Below are positions 6,201 to 51,434 of a stretch of 64,000 bases of DNA, one piece after another. How positions within the stretch are numbered: the first letter of the stretch is position 1; each line of letters starts with the position of its first letter. The notes beneath the pieces were generated by a model that had not been told where the DNA came from, did not search any database, and saw only the letters and a list, made by a program, of their open reading frames with translations. The DNA is from a virus. The DNA is taken from positions 1 through 64,000 of IMG/VR virus record IMGVR_UViG_3300047089_000307. The stretch is one strand, 5' to 3'. The position numbers and the translations under genes were made by a program.

Positions 6201-6273
6201 GGGCTCCTCGTCTAATCGGTGAGGACGCGTGTCTGATAAGCACGTAATCGGGGTTCAATTCCCTGGGGGCCTA
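6201..6273 (+). tRNA. tRNA-Ile(GAT)
   Basis: loop CTGATAA. Confidence 0.9.
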
Positions 6274-6274
6274 C

Positions 6275-6824: not shown

Positions 6825-6902
6825 CGCGGAGTAGGGGAGCTCGGTGTCCCCGCTGGGCTCATAACCCAGAGATCGCGGGTTCAAATCCCGCCTCCGCTAC
6901 CA
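6825..6902 (+). tRNA. initiator tRNA-fMet(CAT)
   Basis: C1 mismatch, GGG/CCC anticodon stem, encoded CCA. Confidence 0.9.
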
Positions 6903-17957: not shown

Positions 17958-18221
17958 ATGGGCGTTAAGTTCACGCAGACTCCTGTCGCCCCGGGCGACC
18001 GGTACGGGCACCTGGTCATCGAGCGTGAGGTGGCCAGGGGCCCGTACGGGCACGAGACCCGGCGCATGGTCCTGGTCCGCTGCGACTGCGGTGACCTGGT
18101 CGTGAAGGTCCTGAAGGACCTGCGCGCGGGGGTGAGGTCCTGTAGCCCGTCGTGCCCGCAAAGGTATGTTAAAGTCTTACCGACGAGTGCTCCTGTCGTT
18201 GGCCCGCGTTTTTCCGGATGA
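17958..18221 (+). CDS. hypothetical protein resembling homing-endonuclease N-terminal domain
   Basis: GDRYGHLVI...RCDCG. Confidence 0.5.
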   Translation: MGVKFTQTPVAPGDRYGHLVIEREVARGPYGHETRRMVLVRCDCGDLVVKVLKDLRAGVRSCSPSCPQRYVKVLPTSAPVVGPRFSG

Positions 18222-18238: not shown

Positions 18239-18273
18239 GGCGGCTTCCCGTGCCAGCGGGAGGCCGCCTTTTT
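18239..18273 (+). terminator. intrinsic terminator
   Basis: GGCGGCTTCCCG/CGGGAGGCCGCC plus T5. Confidence 0.8.
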
Positions 18274-18290
18274 AGTTGCCGGGACAGACT

Positions 18291-18363
18291 GGATTAGACT
18301 GGCCCTCAATGCTGCGGCCTGCGGGAGCCAGCCGGGAACTGATTCCTGGAGCCAGCCATCGCC
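18291..18363 (+). promoter_or_regulatory. conserved 73-bp element, copy A (TAGACT -10, uATG, GGAGCCAGCC x2, ATC start)
   Basis: 67/73 identical to 50942-51014. Confidence 0.8.
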
Positions 18364-20103
18364 GCCCAGCTGTTCGCCCGGCCGCTCGTCTACCTTCCGG
18401 ACGGGTCGGTCTACGAGGGTGAGCTGACGGGCAGCCAGCTGCCCCGGCTGTGGACGTCGCCCGAGCGGCACCGGGTCAAGGACCCCGACTGCCGTACGTG
18501 CAGCCAGCGCGGGTACCCCAGGCTCGGCTGCGGGGACTACGCCTCGGCTGAGCTGCTCCAGTGGGCGCCGTCGTGCGGCTATGACCTGGACCTGTGGCAG
18601 CGCTGGTGGCTGACCGAGGCGTGCGGCGTCAAGCCTGACGGCCGCTGGGCAGCCTTCGAGGTCTGCAACATATGCAGCCGCCAGAACGGGAAGAACCAGC
18701 TCCTGGAAGTGCGGGAGCTGGGCGGCCTGTTCCTGTTCGGCGAGCAGATGATCATCCACACGGCGCACGAGTTCAAGGCCGCCGCCGAGCACTTCCGCCG
18801 CGTCCGCGACACCATTACCTCCTATGATGAGCTGAGCAGGCGCGTCAAGCGGGTCATGACCAGCCACGGCGACGAGGCCATCGAGCTGCGGCCGACGCCG
18901 ACCCTCATCTTCGGCCCGGGGGGCGCGCGCGTCCGGAAGTCCGTCACTGCCCGGCTGCGCTTCCTGGCCCGCTCCCGCGGCTCCGGGCGAAGCTTCACGG
19001 CAGACTGCGTAGTGTACGACGAGGCCATGTTCCTGAGCGACGAGCAGGTTGGCGCGTCCATGCCCACCATGCGCGCCGTGCCCAATCCGCAGATGTACTA
19101 CACGGCCTCGGCGGGCATGAAGGACAGCGTCCAGCTCGCCACGGTCCGGCGGCGCGTCATGCGGGGCGACCCCACCGTGATGGGGGCGGAATGGTCGATT
19201 GACCCCCACCTGGACACGTGCCCGCGCGACGAGGTCCACGGCCGCAAGTCCAATCATTACGTCACCTGCGGCAGGCACGATGACCGGGACGACCCGAGGT
19301 CCTGGGCCAAGGCCAACCCGGCGTTCGGCCGGCGCATCTTCTACGATCACGTCCGGCGTGAGTTCGCGGCCATGTCCCCCGCCGCGTTTGACCGGGAGCT
19401 GCTCGGCGTTGGTGACTGGCCCGCGGAAGAGGAAGCCTGGGCGGTCGTCACCGAGGCCGCCTGGGAGGGCTGCGCGATGGATAACCCCGGCGGGGCCACC
19501 CGGCCCGTGGCGTTCGCGGTCGACGTCAACCCGGAGATGACGGTGGCCACCATCGCGGCGGCCTGGGAGCGCCCGGGGCCGCCGGAGCTGGTGGCCGTGC
19601 CGAAGGTCTATGCCACGGACGGCTCCGAGCGCAGGGGGCAGCCGCCGCCCGCCCGGCAGGCCCGGGTCGTGCTGGAGATCCCCCGCGGCTGCTCGCGGGA
19701 GGGCACCAGCTGGGTAGTGCAGCGGCTGGCCGAGCTGAGGAGGCAGTGGCGCCCGGTGGCCGTCTGCATCCCGCGCAACGGCCCGGCCGCCGCGCTGGCC
19801 GACGCCGCCGCGCACGCGGGCATTGACGTCCTGGTCGCCACCTCCGGGGACGAGGCCGCCGCATTCGCGCTGATGGTCACCGGGATCAGGGACAAGAAGG
19901 TCATCCACATGGGACGGCAGAACGCCCCTGCGCTGTGGAGCGCCATCGCCAGCGCGGAAACCCGCGACATCGGCGACGGCGGCCGGGGCTGGTCCCGGCG
20001 CAACAGCGAGGAGGACATCACGCCGGTTACCGCGGCGACCCTCGCCTACTGGGCGCTGAACAAGAAGCGGCGCAGCTACGACATCCGCAGGAGCATCGCA
20101 TGA
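18358..20103 (+). CDS. terL: terminase large subunit (probable non-canonical ATC start)
   Basis: LDLWQ and SRQNGK Walker A lie upstream of the ORF-track start; GSGRSF, VYDEA and KANP motifs; frame open back to TGA 18340. Confidence 0.9.
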   Translation: MAAQLFARPLVYLPDGSVYEGELTGSQLPRLWTSPERHRVKDPDCRTCSQRGYPRLGCGDYASAELLQWAPSCGYDLDLWQRWWLTEACGVKPDGRWAAFEVCNICSRQNGKNQLLEVRELGGLFLFGEQMIIHTAHEFKAAAEHFRRVRDTITSYDELSRRVKRVMTSHGDEAIELRPTPTLIFGPGGARVRKSVTARLRFLARSRGSGRSFTADCVVYDEAMFLSDEQVGASMPTMRAVPNPQMYYTASAGMKDSVQLATVRRRVMRGDPTVMGAEWSIDPHLDTCPRDEVHGRKSNHYVTCGRHDDRDDPRSWAKANPAFGRRIFYDHVRREFAAMSPAAFDRELLGVGDWPAEEEAWAVVTEAAWEGCAMDNPGGATRPVAFAVDVNPEMTVATIAAAWERPGPPELVAVPKVYATDGSERRGQPPPARQARVVLEIPRGCSREGTSWVVQRLAELRRQWRPVAVCIPRNGPAAALADAAAHAGIDVLVATSGDEAAAFALMVTGIRDKKVIHMGRQNAPALWSAIASAETRDIGDGGRGWSRRNSEEDITPVTAATLAYWALNKKRRSYDIRRSIA

Positions 20104-20867: not shown

Positions 20868-21022
20868 CTTTCAGTATTTAATAGTCGGTTACCGTATTAC
20901 GGTAGCGGCCCTTTTCCGCTGGTGTGTGCTAAATTCCCAGCGGTGGCGTACGCTTGCCGTTAACATACCCGCGGCCATTCTCCGGAGCCGGGACTTCTTG
21001 ACCGGAGGGACCCGGGAACCCT

Positions 21023-22672
21023 GTGGGGCTGCTTGAGCGCATCCAGGCCGATCGCGCTGAGAAGCGCGCGATAACTGGTGTTCCCTGGCGCCCCTGGGAT
21101 AACCCCTTCATCAAGTTCAACCTGGGCGGCCCGGTTCACCCCTCCCGTGCCGCTTACGGCCAGGACCAGGCGCTCGGCCTCCCCGCGCTGTACTCGTGCA
21201 CCCGGCTGCTGGCCGAGTCGCTGGCCAGCCTCCCGCTGAAGCTTTACACGAGTCCTCCCGGGTCGGACGTCACCACGCGCTACACGGGGCCGTCACTCTT
21301 CGACCAGCCGAGCGCGGACACGGACGTCACGCTGTACGACTGGCTGTACCAGATGATGACCGCGCTGCTGCTGCACGGCAACGCGTGGGGCCTTATCTCC
21401 GGGCGCGACGGCTACGGGTACCCCACTGGCATTGAGTGGATTCCCCCCGAGCGGGTGTACGTGCAGGAGGACAGCCAGCAGCCGTGGAACCCGATGCGCA
21501 CCCGCGTGTACGTGGACGGACGGCTGTTCCCTGACTGGCGCAGCGATCTCTTCCACGTCCGGGGCTACGCGCTGGCCGGGCGCACGGAGGGCCTGTCCCC
21601 GCTGCGCGCGTTCGCGCTGACCGTGCTGTCCGGCATTGAGTCCCAGAAGTACGGCGCGGACTGGTACCTGAACGGCGGCTTCCCCTCCGGCGTCTTCCAG
21701 AACCAGGAGCTGGAGGTCAGCCTGGAGGACGCGCGGGAGATCCGCGAGTCGCTGATGGAGGCCATCCACGGGCACAAGCCGCTGGTCGTCGGGCGTGACT
21801 GGGACTACAAGCCCGTGTCGGTACCGCCGTCAGAAGCGCAGTTCCTCGAAGCGACCCAGATGAACGCCACCCAGGTCGCCGCGGTCTACGGGCTGCCCCC
21901 GGACCGGGTGGGCGGCCGGCGCGGCGACTCCCTGACCTACAACACAGTAGAGCAATCTACATTGCAAGTGATTGAGGCGCTGCGGCCGTGGATCGTCCGG
22001 CTGGAGACTGCCTTCTTCCGGCTGCTGCCGCAGAGCCGCTTCTGCCGGTTCAATTCCGACGCGCTGCTGAAGACCGACCTGAAGACGCGCACCGAGATCT
22101 ACGCGCAGCAGCGCGCGATCGGCATGCTCACCGTGGACGAGATCCGCGACATGGAAGACCGCATGCCGTACCCGAACGCCACGGGCGACGAGAAGATCCC
22201 CCAGGACGTCATGGTCGCCATGTCCCGGTCGATCCGCGGCATCCCGAATTCCATGCTGCCGAGCATCACCCTGGAAGTTGACCTGATCGCCGACCGGCTG
22301 ACCAAGCTCCAGGGCGAGGGGCTGACCAAGCCGGAGACCGAGCCGTCCATCCCTAACCCGGAGGACTTCCTGTCCGGCCAGGTCGGCTCCGTCCGCTCGG
22401 CCGCGGGCGCGCCGCCGCTTCCCCACGCGATGCTGGCGCACTTGCAGGCACTGCTGGCCGAGCACGTCGGCCGCGAGGCCGCGGCGCAGATCCTCGATAA
22501 GTCCCTGGCCACCGCGGGAGCCGATCGCAAGCAGCCGGAGTTCATCGGGCCGTGGATTCCGTCCGAGGCTGACCTGGCGAAGGCAGAGGCCGTCCTGAGG
22601 CTCGCCGCGTTCCCCGTCCCGGAGCTTGCCTCCGCGAACGGCGGCAACGGCAACGGGAACGGGAGGCACTGA
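21023..22672 (+). CDS. portal protein, HK97 family
   Basis: LLLHGNAW, GLSP, EAQFLE and VEQ motifs. Confidence 0.95.
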   Translation: MGLLERIQADRAEKRAITGVPWRPWDNPFIKFNLGGPVHPSRAAYGQDQALGLPALYSCTRLLAESLASLPLKLYTSPPGSDVTTRYTGPSLFDQPSADTDVTLYDWLYQMMTALLLHGNAWGLISGRDGYGYPTGIEWIPPERVYVQEDSQQPWNPMRTRVYVDGRLFPDWRSDLFHVRGYALAGRTEGLSPLRAFALTVLSGIESQKYGADWYLNGGFPSGVFQNQELEVSLEDAREIRESLMEAIHGHKPLVVGRDWDYKPVSVPPSEAQFLEATQMNATQVAAVYGLPPDRVGGRRGDSLTYNTVEQSTLQVIEALRPWIVRLETAFFRLLPQSRFCRFNSDALLKTDLKTRTEIYAQQRAIGMLTVDEIRDMEDRMPYPNATGDEKIPQDVMVAMSRSIRGIPNSMLPSITLEVDLIADRLTKLQGEGLTKPETEPSIPNPEDFLSGQVGSVRSAAGAPPLPHAMLAHLQALLAEHVGREAAAQILDKSLATAGADRKQPEFIGPWIPSEADLAKAEAVLRLAAFPVPELASANGGNGNGNGRH

Positions 22673-47406: not shown

Positions 47407-47598
47407 ATGAGTGCCATCTGCAAGAAGACATCCTCGGGCGTGGACGGCCGGAGTTTTCATGTTGACCACGATCACGTCACAGGCGCAGTGCGCGGGCTGC
47501 TATGTCAGACTTGCAATGTCGGACTTGGAGCACTGCATGATGACGTGAACTTGCTGCGCGCTGCTCTCGCTTACCTGGAAGGGAGCGTGATGTCATGA
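47407..47598 (+). CDS. endonuclease VII-like fragment
   Basis: HVDHDH.TG.VRGLLC..CN, N-terminus truncated. Confidence 0.65.
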
Positions 47599-48534
47599 CC
47601 GCCACGGTCTTCTTTTGACTCCGTTAACGAGATCGCGCTGCTCAGCAACACGTTCCTGAACAGCTCGCAGGCCGCGGCCGACCCCACGGCCGTCAGCTGC
47701 ACCGTCTCGGACCCGTCCGGGACCTCGGTCACGCACACGTTCGGCGGCGCGTCCCCCGCGGATATCGTCAAGGTAGCCACGGGCAAGTACACGCTGTCGG
47801 TGGCGTGCGCGCCGGCCATCGCGGGCGTGGACGGGCTGTGGCAGTTCGAGTGGGCCGGCACCGGGGCGGTCAGCGACGTCCAGCCGGGAACCTGGCGGGT
47901 GCTGCCGGCCAGCGTCGCCACCTGGTACATCGGGCTGGAGGAGTTCAAGGACCGGCTGGGCATCGCCGACGATAGCGATGACTCCCAGGCGCAGATCGCC
48001 ATCCAGACTGTCTGCGGGTGGGTCAACCAGTGGACCGGCCAGCACTTCAACCGGATCACCGAGGCACGCACGTTCGTGCCGCACGACATCTGCAAGGTCA
48101 ACATCGACCCGCTGGTGTCGGTCACCACGTTCCTGGTCGACCGCGACGGCAACGGCGTCTTCGGCGAGACCTGGACGCTGAACACCGACTACCAGCTGCG
48201 CATCGGGCCGGATTCCTACAACCTGAACGCGACCGGCATCCTGCGGCCGTACCGGCAGGCCGTCACCGTGCAGTCCGGTAAGCTCTTCCCGTTCATCTAC
48301 CCGTTCTCCCACCAGGACCGGGTGCAGGTCACCGGTACCTGGGGCTGGTTCGCGGTCCCCGCGGAGGTTGCCCAGGCGACGTTCATCCTCGCCGCGGACC
48401 TGTTCAAGATGAAGGATGCCCCGTTCGGCGTGGCGGGCGTCAGCGACTACGGCATTACCCGCATTCAGGCCAATCCCTGGCTCATCGAGCTGCTGCGGCC
48501 GTACAAGAACACAAAGCGGGCGGTCGGCGTATGA
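47595..48534 (+). CDS. head-to-tail adaptor, with +1 frameshift at TTT-TGA-C 47613-47619
   Basis: VTGTWGW.AVPAEV.QAT motif; MTATVFF joins DSVNEIALL in the +1 frame. Confidence 0.8.
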
Positions 48535-49459: not shown

Positions 49460-49533
49460 ATGCATAATGAAGCGCGTTTATCGCCCGATAAAGACAGCAG
49501 GCTTTGCATCCGGGGCGGTATACGCTGTGCGCC

Positions 49534-49692
49534 ATGGCTGATGAGCCTCCCCGGGAAGACCCGATAACCGCCCTCCAGGTGAGCGCGGTGCAGCAGCATG
49601 AGATGTTCCTCGCCTGGCAGGTGGCGGGCTTCGATGCCGCCCAGGCCCTGGAGCTGCTGAAGGCCGTGATCATGGCCATGATCCTGAAGTAG
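49534..49692 (+). CDS. small hypothetical protein
   Basis: HEMF.A...AGF...QAL motif. Confidence 0.6.
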   Translation: MADEPPREDPITALQVSAVQQHEMFLAWQVAGFDAAQALELLKAVIMAMILK

Positions 49693-50177: not shown

Positions 50178-50744
50178 ATGCAAAATTTGCTACTGACGTG
50201 GCCGGAAGCGGCGCGGTTTCCGCTCGCGATGCCCGTGGGAAAGCGTGTAGTAGCGGTGGCCGAGTCTGATGTCCGGCGGTTCATGGGCATGACGGAGGCT
50301 GACGGGAGGTGCCTGCGGTTTACCCGCTGGAAGGACCCGAGGACGGCTTACGGGATGTTCGGGCTGAAGTGCCAGGCGACGGTCCTCGCGCACCGGTTCG
50401 CCTACACGGTCTGGCGCGGGCCGATTCCGGCCAGGCTCACGATCGATCACCTGTGCCATAACGAGGCGGCACAGGCGGGCATGTGTGACGGCGGTCCCTG
50501 TGCTCACCGCGCTTGCGTCTGGCCGTGGAGCCTCCACCCGACTACGCTCTCCCTGAATAAGGCGGCCAGCCCGACGCGCAGCAGGGGCGGAGGCGAGAAT
50601 CACCGCAACGCCCGCAAGACGCACTGCGACAACGGCCATGAGTTCACGCCGGAGAATACGTACGAATGGCGGGGACAGCGGCATTGCCGGGCCTGCCGGG
50701 CAACGGACGCCAGGAACTTCCGGGAGAAAGGCAGTCACGCATGA
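50178..50744 (+). CDS. HNH homing endonuclease
   Basis: AHR..Y....GPIP...IDHLC and KTHC.NGHEFTPENT..R.CRAC motifs. Confidence 0.85.
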   Translation: MQNLLLTWPEAARFPLAMPVGKRVVAVAESDVRRFMGMTEADGRCLRFTRWKDPRTAYGMFGLKCQATVLAHRFAYTVWRGPIPARLTIDHLCHNEAAQAGMCDGGPCAHRACVWPWSLHPTTLSLNKAASPTRSRGGGENHRNARKTHCDNGHEFTPENTYEWRGQRHCRACRATDARNFREKGSHA

Positions 50745-50941: not shown

Positions 50942-51014
50942 GGATTAGACTGACCCCTGATGCTGCGGCCTCCGGGAGCCAGCCGGGAACTGATCCCTGG
51001 AGCCAGCCATCGCC
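50942..51014 (+). promoter_or_regulatory. conserved 73-bp element, copy B
   Basis: 67/73 identical to 18291-18363. Confidence 0.8.
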
Positions 51015-51434
51015 GACCTCGCCGCCATCCGCACCGCGCTGGCGAACCGGATCACCGCCGGGACCGGCCTGCGGACGCTGCCCGAGGCGCGAGACCAGGT
51101 CAGCCCCCCGGTTGCCGTCATCCTGCCCGCCCCGGGGGTGATCCAGTACGGGAACACCGTGGACGGGGCGTTCACCGTCAACCTCGTCGTGCTGCTGCTC
51201 ATCAGCGACGCCGCGCCGACTGAGAAGGTCCAGCGGGCCCTGGACGCCTACCTCGGGATCGGCGCGCACGACGCCGTCCCGTCCAGCATCGCCGGGGCCA
51301 TCCAGGACGACCCGACGCTCGGCGGCACCGTGCACTTCGCGCTGGCCGTCTCCGCGAGCGGGTACGGCCGCGTCGACTACGCCGCGGTCACCTACTTCGG
51401 CGCCCGGGTAGCCGTGCAGGCGGGAGCTATCTGA
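51009..51434 (+). CDS. tail terminator-like protein (probable ATC start)
   Basis: (M)ADLAAIRTALANRI...AI..DPTLGG.V motif. Confidence 0.75.
   Translation: MADLAAIRTALANRITAGTGLRTLPEARDQVSPPVAVILPAPGVIQYGNTVDGAFTVNLVVLLLISDAAPTEKVQRALDAYLGIGAHDAVPSSIAGAIQDDPTLGGTVHFALAVSASGYGRVDYAAVTYFGARVAVQAGAI

What the first reader, a model, noticed from the sequence alone, without database searches (positions are those of the whole stretch)
18291..18363. Duplicated cis element imposing an AUC start (or +1 recoding) on terminase and tail terminator
Seen: 73 bp repeated at 50942-51014 (67/73 identical). It has a TAGACT -10 box, an ATG 8 nt later opening an out-of-frame peptide MLRP(A/P)GASRELIPGASH, and two GGAGCCAGCC copies 24 nt apart flanking a hairpin that hides part of the GGAG SD, then ATC-GCC. 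In both places ATC is in frame with an essential virion gene (+1 relative to the uATG) and follows an in-frame TGA. TerL's Walker A lies upstream of its first ATG/GTG/TTG, and ATC-GCC-GAC-CTC gives the typical (M)ADLAAIR tail-terminator start. The same ATC in both copies argues against sequencing error. Inference: a translational switch limiting low-copy assembly proteins, via AUC initiation, uORF-coupled reinitiation or programmed +1 frameshift, possibly needing a phage RNA-binding protein or reduced IF3 fidelity.
Basis: partly seen in the sequence, partly recalled or inferred. Interest (0 to 1): 0.82.

Follow-up and report, generated by a model that had tools for sequence, protein, structure and literature searches.

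The report
Duplicated phage leader cassette with ATC start
Two essential virion genes of an uncultured 158-kb actinophage (large terminase and tail terminator) sit behind copies of one 73-bp promoter-plus-leader cassette and almost certainly start translation at the weak codon ATC instead of ATG. It is a well-documented natural case of a rare but known way of starting a protein.

Summary
The 73-bp repeat (18291-18363 and 50942-51014, 67/73 identical) occurs only twice in the 158.6-kb genome. Each copy ends in GGAG, six bases, then ATC-GCC. ATC lies exactly where every homologue of TerL and of the tail terminator has ATG or GTG.

It is not an error. Independent assemblies of six other sequencing runs are identical. 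Five datasets (four sequence variants) carry ATC at the tail terminator, and all substitutions downstream of it are synonymous in the ATC frame.

Close relatives have the same cassette before TerL, but with one extra C and ATG-ACC. There a 17-codon leaderless uORF ends in a TGA that overlaps the ATG. The window's TerL copy is a mosaic, which indicates that gene conversion from the tail-terminator copy carried ATC-GCC onto TerL.

The cassette belongs to a lineage-wide family of late leaders: a TANNNT -10, a CYGYGGCC box and GGAGCC.

+1 frameshifting, hopping, a CUG start, a matching initiator tRNA and a phage IF3 found no support.

The best reading is SD-directed AUC initiation that throttles low-copy proteins. 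This scan has already noted AUH-started phage genes on other genomes, but not this cassette.

The parts
18239..18275 (+). Intrinsic terminator (13-bp stem plus T run) just upstream of copy A. TerL therefore needs its own promoter.
18291..18363 (+). Cassette copy A. It contains -10 TAGACT 18295-18300, uATG 18309, CTGCGGCC box 18312-18319, GGAGCCAGCC 18324-18333, a small stem-loop 18332-18349, a second GGAGCCAGCC 18348-18357 (SD GGAG 18348-51) and ATC 18358-60. It is a mosaic: the 5' part is TerL-type and the 3' part is tail-terminator-type.
18309..18422 (+). Out-of-frame uORF A (37 codons), probably at or next to the mRNA 5' end. It reads through the ATC in the -1 frame.
   Evidence: Sequence. 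Spacing to the -10 resembles leaderless genes of this phage.
18358..20103 (+). Large terminase (TerL) CDS, 581 codons from ATC. The P-loop SRQNGKN lies upstream of the first canonical start, GTG 18709.
50942..51014 (+). Cassette copy B. It contains -10 TAGACT 50946-51, uATG 50960, CTGCGGCC 50963-70, GGAGCCAGCC 50975-84 and 50999-51008, and ATC 51009-11.
50960..51223 (+). Out-of-frame uORF B (87 codons).
51009..51434 (+). Tail terminator CDS, 141 codons from ATC. The first canonical start, GTG 51138, would remove 43 conserved residues.
20949..21025 (+). Another member of the leader family, in front of the portal gene: TACGCT -10, CCGCGGCC box, GGAGCC, a structured leader and GTG 21023.

Best explanation
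The 73-bp repeat is a duplicated expression cassette. Its parts are an actinobacterial-type -10 promoter (TAGACT), a transcript that begins at or next to an AUG, the lineage's conserved leader box (CUGCGGCC, 4 nt, GGAGCC), a short stem-loop, and a second GGAGCC whose GGAG lies 6 nt before the start codon. In this phage both copies end in ATC-GCC. TerL and the tail terminator are made by ordinary Shine-Dalgarno-directed initiation with initiator tRNA at the near-cognate codon AUC. This probably gives a small percentage of AUG-level output, which suits proteins needed in a few copies per virion or motor. The ATC start is ancestral at the tail terminator in this subclade. In this strain a short gene-conversion tract (about 31-45 bp) copied the 3' end of that cassette, including ATC-GCC, onto the TerL cassette. 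That tract replaced an ATG that had been translationally coupled (ATGA overlap) to a 17-codon leaderless uORF. Shown: the repeat, the position of ATC, its reproducibility, its conservation, purifying selection in the ATC frame, and the mosaic structure. Inferred: the promoter and 5' end, actual initiation at AUC, and the throttling role.
For: 1. ATC occupies the start position. TerL homologues start 12 residues before the conserved LPD with ATG or GTG (L003, L018, L004, L007, L008, L010). Relatives at 90% identity or more start ATG ACC GCC CAG. Five tail-terminator homologues start ATG or GTG at exactly that codon, and position 3 of the PHROG tail-terminator profile aligns to residue 3 counted from ATC.
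2. It is not an error. Logan assemblies of SRR26077553, SRR26075290 and SRR26077543 (copy A) and of SRR26075154, SRR26074872 and SRR26077543 (copy B) are 100% identical.
3. ATC is conserved. It is present in all five tail-terminator cassettes from five datasets, four of them distinct variants.
4. The region is translated in the ATC frame. 5/5 and 2/2 codon differences across the 43 codons from ATC to GTG are synonymous in that frame and 0 are synonymous in the other frames. For the TerL N-terminus the counts are 10 synonymous to 5 non-synonymous and 25 to 15. GC3 is 0.92-0.94 upstream of the canonical starts.
5. Copy A is a mosaic. All 5' diagnostic sites are TerL-type; the indel, A, ATC and GCC are tail-terminator-type.
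6. There is a promoter. A terminator lies upstream of copy A. 20 of 23 family sites have TANNNT 9-19 nt upstream of the box, against 5% at random positions. 4 of the 6 differences between the copies fall in the 8-nt spacer between the -10 and the AUG.
7. AUC initiates at 1-2% of AUG with N-terminal Met in E. coli (bioRxiv 10.1101/063800).
Against: The SD is only 4 nt (GGAG), not the extended SD often seen with AUH starts. If the 5' AUG is used efficiently, ribosomes translating the out-of-frame uORF would run across the AUC and compete with initiation there. The host, and so its initiation fidelity, is unknown. TerL's ATC is specific to this strain. The same strain also carries a 1-nt frameshift in its head-tail adaptor gene, so a partly crippled lineage cannot be fully excluded for TerL.
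Confidence: 0.72

Rival explanations
1. Translation starts at the in-frame CUG four codons upstream (18346 and 50997), which would give (M)EPAIA... proteins.
For: CTG is in frame and present in both window copies and in most variants. CUG is as good a near-cognate start as AUC in E. coli.
Against: The CTG overlaps the SD itself and has no SD at a usable distance. It lies inside the small stem. The ERZ25416080 variant has CGG at that position and still has ATC. All homologues start at the ATC position.
Confidence: 0.05
2. Ribosomes load at the 5' AUG of the uORF and reach the gene frame by programmed +1 frameshifting or by hopping between the two GGAGCCAGCC copies. The products would carry a 16-residue N-terminal extension.
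For: The gene frame is +1 relative to the uATG in both copies. The uATG sits where leaderless starts of this phage sit relative to a -10. The same phage has a genuine prfB-like UUU-UGA-C +1 site in its adaptor gene.
Against: Between the in-frame TGA and the conserved N-terminus, no codon allows +1 re-pairing (ATT/ATC, CCT, GGA, GCC, AGC, CAT, CGC). No stop or rare codon is present to stall the ribosome. The two repeats are 24 nt apart, so they share a frame and hopping cannot change frame. The first repeat would send a shifted ribosome into TGA. Relatives carry the same cassette with the uORF in another frame, ending in ATGA. The uATG is absent from most family members.
Confidence: 0.05
3. ATC is functional at the tail terminator, but on TerL it is a recent, mildly deleterious or neutral by-product of gene conversion in a lineage that may be impaired or helper-dependent. 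It would then not be a selected regulatory state.
For: The TerL ATC is seen only in this strain; relatives at 90% identity or more have ATG. The same strain has a strain-specific frameshift in the adaptor gene.
Against: The strain was recovered in 14-22 JGI contigs and 8-11 Logan contigs from many runs. The donor cassette sustains an essential gene across the subclade. The TerL coding sequence is intact with GC3 of 0.93.
Confidence: 0.1
4. Initiation at AUC needs a phage-specific helper: a dedicated initiator tRNA, an altered IF3, or a protein that binds the CYGYGGCC-GGAGCC leader box.
For: The leader box is conserved and strand-specific in front of late genes in four related genomes, and its function is unknown. 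The phage encodes 33 tRNAs, including an initiator-like tRNA-Met.
Against: The initiator-like tRNA has the normal CAU anticodon. tRNA-Ile(GAU) has none of the initiator marks. There is no IF3_N or IF3_C domain in the genome. The box also precedes ordinary ATG and GTG genes, so it is not specific to AUC.
Confidence: 0.08

Closest known systems
Near-cognate AUU/AUC/AUA start codons in bacteria (E. coli infC and pcnB; measured for all codons by Hecht et al., bioRxiv 10.1101/063800)
   Same: An AUH codon lies behind an SD at normal spacing, at the position where orthologues have ATG or GTG. Low output is expected (1-2% of AUG), with Met at the N-terminus.
   Different: There is no evidence of IF3 autoregulation. 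The codon sits in a duplicated promoter-leader cassette in front of two virion genes, and gene conversion moved it between them. The SD is only GGAG.
AUH-started phage genes noted earlier in this scan on other genomes (for example e1-3266756 terminase/portal, e1-3446318 tail genes, e1-3440278 capsid)
   Same: Phage structural or packaging genes have N-termini that lie upstream of any canonical start and begin at ATC, ATT or ATA. Gene callers truncate them; here TerL was called at 464 aa instead of 581 and the tail terminator at 98 aa instead of 141.
   Different: Those notes describe strong or extended SDs and no shared cassette. No look-alike of this cassette exists in the scan's notes.
Start-Associated Sequences (SAS/ESAS) of Cluster K mycobacteriophages (PMC3203893)
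   Same: A short asymmetric repeat containing GGAGCC lies a few bases upstream of the start codons of a subset of genes. It occurs in one orientation and in many copies per genome, and its function is unknown but thought to concern translation initiation.
   Different: The SAS consensus GGGATAGGAGCCC is matched at only 7 of 13 positions. SAS sites lie in the non-structural arm; here the sites precede late or structural operons and come with a -10 hexamer and a CYGYGGCC box. This is not a member of that family.
uORF-coupled initiation with ATGA overlap and leaderless translation in actinobacteria (PMC9094748 for leaderless ORFs in M. tuberculosis)
   Same: In relatives L081 and L083 the cassette's 5' AUG opens a 17-codon ORF whose TGA overlaps the TerL ATG.
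   Different: In the window a 1-nt deletion and the change from ATGA to ATCG abolished the overlap. The uORFs now run 37 and 87 codons out of frame.
prfB-type +1 frameshifting and T4 gene 60 bypassing
   Same: A gene body lies +1 relative to an upstream AUG, with repeated sequence flanking a hairpin.
   Different: There is no slippery or stop site, and the repeats lie in the same frame. The defining features are not met at the cassette. A prfB-like site does exist elsewhere in this phage, at 47610-47619.

Membership tests
Near-cognate (AUH) initiation codon | AUH codon at the position homologous to the ATG or GTG of orthologues | tested here: met
   TerL. Tail terminator.
Near-cognate (AUH) initiation codon | Coding sequence under purifying selection between the AUH codon and the first canonical start | tested here: met
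   5/5 and 2/2 synonymous differences for the tail terminator; 10:5 and 25:15 for TerL. GC3 is 0.92-0.94. The P-loop lies upstream of GTG 18709.
Near-cognate (AUH) initiation codon | Shine-Dalgarno sequence at functional spacing | tested here: met
   GGAG lies 6 nt before ATC in both copies and in all variants.
Near-cognate (AUH) initiation codon | Direct demonstration of initiation (N-terminal peptide or initiating-ribosome footprint) | not testable with these tools
Programmed +1 ribosomal frameshift (prfB type) | P-site codon able to re-pair in the +1 frame next to a stop or slow codon | tested here: not met
   Codons between 18342 and 18365 were inspected. None re-pairs and there is no stop in the uORF frame.
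Translational bypassing (T4 gene 60 type) | Matched take-off and landing codons whose spacing produces the required frame, with a stop after take-off | tested here: not met
   The repeats are 24 nt apart and so share a frame. No stop follows the first copy in the uORF frame.
Cluster K SAS/ESAS | 13-bp consensus GGGATAGGAGCCC (two or fewer deviations) 3-7 bp upstream of the start | tested here: not met
   Only the GGAGCC core is shared, 7 of 13 positions.
Start codon reassigned by a phage initiator-like tRNA | tRNA with initiator marks (1:72 mismatch, three G-C pairs in the anticodon stem) and an anticodon matching the odd start codon | tested here: not met
   tRNA-Ile(GAU) 6201-6274 lacks the marks. 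The initiator-like tRNA 6825-6902 has the CAU anticodon.
Lineage-specific late leader family (TANNNT, 9-19 nt, CYGYGGCC, 1-25 nt, GGAGCC, then start) | All three motifs in order, on the coding strand, upstream of a gene start | tested here: met
   Both copies match. Family counts for G001 are 0 forward and 9 reverse (control 1/1); for G002, 8/3 (control 2/3); for G003, 1/7 (control 3/0). 20 of 23 sites have a -10 against 5% at random positions.

The most novel reading that the evidence does not exclude
The conserved 5' leader box (CYGYGGCC, then GGAGCC) marks the late transcripts of this group of 140-185 kb actinophages. It may be the docking site of a phage-encoded factor, or a ribosome standby site, that licenses translation of otherwise closed or weak start sites, including AUC. 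On this reading the AUC starts, the SD-sequestering TerL hairpins of relatives and the adaptor +1 site would all be parts of one phage-controlled programme that sets the stoichiometry of low-copy virion proteins.
Probability: 0.15. Interest if true: 0.75.

Novelty: new variant of a known kind. Interest (0 to 1): 0.5.

Why it matters
Three points make it useful.
1. It is a clean natural example of an AUC start codon that is stably maintained on an essential phage gene across several strains. It also shows that a weak-start ribosome-binding module can be moved to another essential gene by a 30-45 bp gene conversion.
2. Gene callers truncate both proteins. TerL loses its ATPase P-loop and the tail terminator loses 43 residues, so annotations of this phage group are systematically wrong.
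3. Relatives reach TerL by four different routes: a leaderless mRNA, a strong SD-sequestering hairpin, a leaderless uORF coupled through ATGA, and AUC. This suggests strong, repeated selection on how little terminase is made. The group is therefore a good system for studying translational throttling in actinophages.

Tried and rejected
- DNA search of cultured phages with the cassette found no match. A protein search found TerL relatives at 36% identity or less and none for the tail terminator.
- Exact-pattern scans gave nothing useful: viral contigs had no hit, and metagenome contigs had one unrelated hit in a 274-kb contig.
Independent Logan, ENA, NCBI and JGI contigs were used instead.
- A phage IF3 was sought (PF00707, PF05198) and not found. 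An RF-1 domain gene (PF00472) is absent from this genome, although it sits upstream of TerL in L081 and L083.
- An initiator-like tRNA reading AUC was rejected.
- Rfam gave only sub-threshold chance hits. The PDB sequence search for TerL gave none, and Pfam gave none for either protein.
- I considered that the cassette is the 3' end of a mobile HNH endonuclease unit, because HNH genes lie upstream of both copies. This was rejected because relatives carry cassette B without the HNH gene, and in the window the HNH sits two genes upstream.
- An AGCCAGCC repeat array as a terminase-binding site was rejected for the window. It is seen upstream of TerL in L018 but is not enriched in this genome beyond the cassette.
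- The hairpin as a significant structure was rejected: leader folding is no better than shuffled sequence.
- A genome-wide screen for other coding sequence upstream of canonical starts found only TerL, the tail terminator and the adaptor gene.

Full report
**What is there.** The window is the first 64 kb of a 158,651-bp IMG/VR virus record with 69% G+C and 33 tRNA genes at 3.6-8 kb. The two 73-bp copies are 67/73 identical, at 18291-18363 and 50942-51014. They are the only copies in the whole record. The double GGAGCCAGCC pattern is far above chance. Each copy contains the following, in order:
- TAGACT, then 8 nt, then an ATG.
- CTGCGGCC, 4 nt, GGAGCCAGCC.
- A short stem-loop, then a second GGAGCCAGCC.
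- ATC-GCC.

Copy A follows a strong intrinsic terminator at 18239-18275.

**The genes.** The frame opened by ATC 18358 is a large terminase (phrog_9, E 3e-64). The frame opened by ATC 51009 is a tail terminator (phrog_17840, E 3e-20), and profile position 3 aligns to the third residue counted from ATC.
- TerL's first canonical start is GTG 18709. It lies just after the P-loop SRQNGKN, so a protein starting there would lack its Walker A.
- The tail terminator's first canonical start is GTG 51138, which would remove 43 residues.
- A genome-wide screen for coding-like sequence upstream of the first canonical start picked out only these two genes and one other.

**ATC is the start position.** Thirty related viral contigs carry TerL at 30-80% identity.
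- Wherever the N-terminus is present, the start is ATG or GTG exactly 12 residues before the conserved LPD motif. Examples are L003 (ATG GCC), L018 (GTG ACT), L004 (GTG ACC), and L007, L008 and L010 (ATG).
- Five tail-terminator homologues start ATG or GTG at the ATC-equivalent codon, reading M/V-A-D/N-L.

**It is not an error.** The truncated products that gene callers make from this sequence (464 aa and 98 aa) are on record in many assemblies.
- Logan contigs of SRR26077553, SRR26075290 and SRR26077543 are 100% identical over copy A and its flanks.
- Logan contigs of SRR26075154, SRR26074872 and SRR26077543 are 100% identical over copy B.

**Evolution of the cassette.** The 90% protein clusters contain full-length 580-aa TerL proteins that start MTAQLF.
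- Two of their contigs (NCBI GCA_040384165.1 and ERR12875288) carry the same cassette in front of TerL. It has one extra C after the first GGAGCCAGCC and ends GGAGCCGGCC ATG ACC.
- With that C, the upstream ATG opens a 17-codon ORF whose TGA overlaps the TerL ATG. This is the classical ATGA coupling arrangement.
- The same two phages, plus ERZ25416080 and JGI 3300046543, carry the cassette in front of the tail terminator. In all five datasets (four sequence variants) it ends in ATC GCC.
- Between ATC and GTG 51138, 5/5 and 2/2 codon differences are synonymous in the ATC frame and none are synonymous in the other frames. TerL's first 117 codons show 10:5 and 25:15 synonymous to non-synonymous differences.
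- The window's copy A is a clean mosaic. The spacer and the CCTGCGGG sites are TerL-type. The indel, the A of GCCAGCC, ATC and GCC are tail-terminator-type.
- TerL relatives encode M-T and tail terminators encode M-A at these codons, so the direction of transfer is from the tail terminator to TerL.
- More distant relatives have no cassette at the tail terminator, which overlaps the upstream gene there. Copy B is therefore a derived insertion of a TerL-type leader.

**A wider family.** The pattern CYGYGGCC, 1-25 nt, GGAGCC occurs on the structural-gene strand in related genomes far more often than a reversed control:

| Genome | Forward | Reverse | Control (forward/reverse) |
|---|---|---|---|
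| G001 | 0 | 9 | 1/1 |
| G002 | 8 | 3 | 2/3 |
| G003 | 1 | 7 | 3/0 |

- Each strand-consistent site lies 20-60 nt before an ATG or GTG with an SD.
- 20 of 23 such sites have a TANNNT hexamer (mostly TACGCT) 9-19 nt upstream, against 5% at random positions.
- In the window the portal gene (20949-21025) has such a leader.
- The element is therefore a promoter plus a conserved 5' leader. The function of the box is unknown, and no Rfam family matches it.
- In more distant relatives the TerL leader forms a -31 to -43 kcal/mol hairpin that encloses the SD and ends 2-4 nt before the ATG. Four of its 13 pairs show compensatory changes.
- The window's leader folds at only -13 to -17 kcal/mol and no better than shuffled sequence.
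- L003, L004, L018 and L082 have a -10-like hexamer 6-7 nt before the TerL start, which suggests leaderless mRNAs.
- TerL translation is thus restrained in a different way in each sublineage. AUC is this strain's version.

**Alternatives.**
- +1 frameshifting: no codon between the in-frame TGA and the conserved N-terminus can re-pair in +1, and no stop or slow codon is present.
- Hopping: the two repeats lie in the same frame.
- Termination-reinitiation: the uORFs run 37 and 87 codons past the ATC, so it cannot apply here.
- CUG four codons upstream: it overlaps the SD and is replaced by CGG in one ATC-bearing variant.
- Dedicated tRNA: tRNA-Ile(GAU) is not initiator-like, and the phage's initiator-like tRNA has the CAU anticodon.
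- Phage IF3: no such domain is encoded.
- Link to neighbouring HNH genes: relatives have the cassette without the HNH gene.

**Mechanism proposed.** A late promoter fires, and the transcript starts at or next to the AUG. 30S subunits bind the GGAG 6 nt upstream of AUC and initiate with fMet-tRNA at low efficiency; AUC gives 1-2% of AUG in E. coli. The upstream GGAGCC may act as a standby site. Ribosomes translating the out-of-frame uORF may open the small stem, or may compete with initiation at AUC. These last points are inference.

**Caveats.**
- There are no N-terminal or RNA 5'-end data.
- The host is unknown.
- The SD is short.
- TerL's ATC is strain-specific, and the strain also carries a 1-nt frameshift in its adaptor gene. 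A fitness cost therefore cannot be excluded, although the strain is recovered in many samples.

**Comparison with known systems.** The mechanism matches near-cognate AUH initiation as in infC and pcnB, and the AUH-started phage genes this scan noted on other genomes. The leader box resembles the Cluster K SAS in idea and in its GGAGCC core, but it does not meet the SAS consensus.

Noticed in passing
window 47595-47619: The head-tail adaptor gene (phrog_442; body 47599-48534) is +1 relative to its own ATG at 47595. The sequence reads ATG ACC GCC ACG GTC TTC TTT TGA C, which is a prfB-like UUU-UGA-C +1 slippery-stop site. Relatives read straight through (MTATVFYD..., 312 aa; L089 has GTC TTT TAC GAC). 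The extra base is identical in three independent Logan assemblies, so it is real DNA. It is either a programmed +1 frameshift or a tolerated lesion.
   Followed up: partly
window 6825-6902: This is a phage-encoded initiator-like tRNA-Met(CAU). It has a C1xU72 mismatch and three G-C pairs at the bottom of the anticodon stem, and it lies among 33 tRNA genes.
   Followed up: partly
window 47408-47598; 50178-50744; 17958-18221: Three small free-standing HNH or endonuclease-VII-like genes are inserted in the virion module. One overlaps the adaptor ATG (ATGA). One is a 188-aa protein (phrog_826) two genes upstream of the tail terminator. One is an 87-aa protein with a weak HNH match just upstream of the TerL terminator.
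   Followed up: partly
window 49521-49692: This looks like a leaderless gene: TACGCT, 7 nt, then ATG, opening a 52-codon ORF that is also called in relatives. It shows the -10-to-AUG spacing this phage uses.
   Followed up: no
L018 1462-4407: In a 107-kb relative, TerL is interrupted in frame by about 1.2 kb exactly at the P-loop (after residue 118). This looks like an intein or a similar insertion.
   Followed up: no
L081 1038-1439; L083 1038-1439: Close relatives encode a 133-aa RF-1-domain (PF00472, ArfB-like) protein immediately upstream of the TerL cassette. It is absent from this genome.
   Followed up: partly
L018 1300-1420: An array of CAGCCAGCC-type repeats lies upstream of TerL in a relative, with weaker versions in L003 and L004. 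It could be a protein-binding or packaging-related site.
   Followed up: no
G001 116-161 kb, G002 3-72 kb, G003 5-155 kb (loci L042-L071): About 8-9 copies per genome of the late leader motif (TANNNT, CYGYGGCC, GGAGCC, often followed by an SD-sequestering hairpin) precede structural operons. Some have mini-uORFs such as MLRP* or MILRPG*. The function of the box is unknown.
   Followed up: partly
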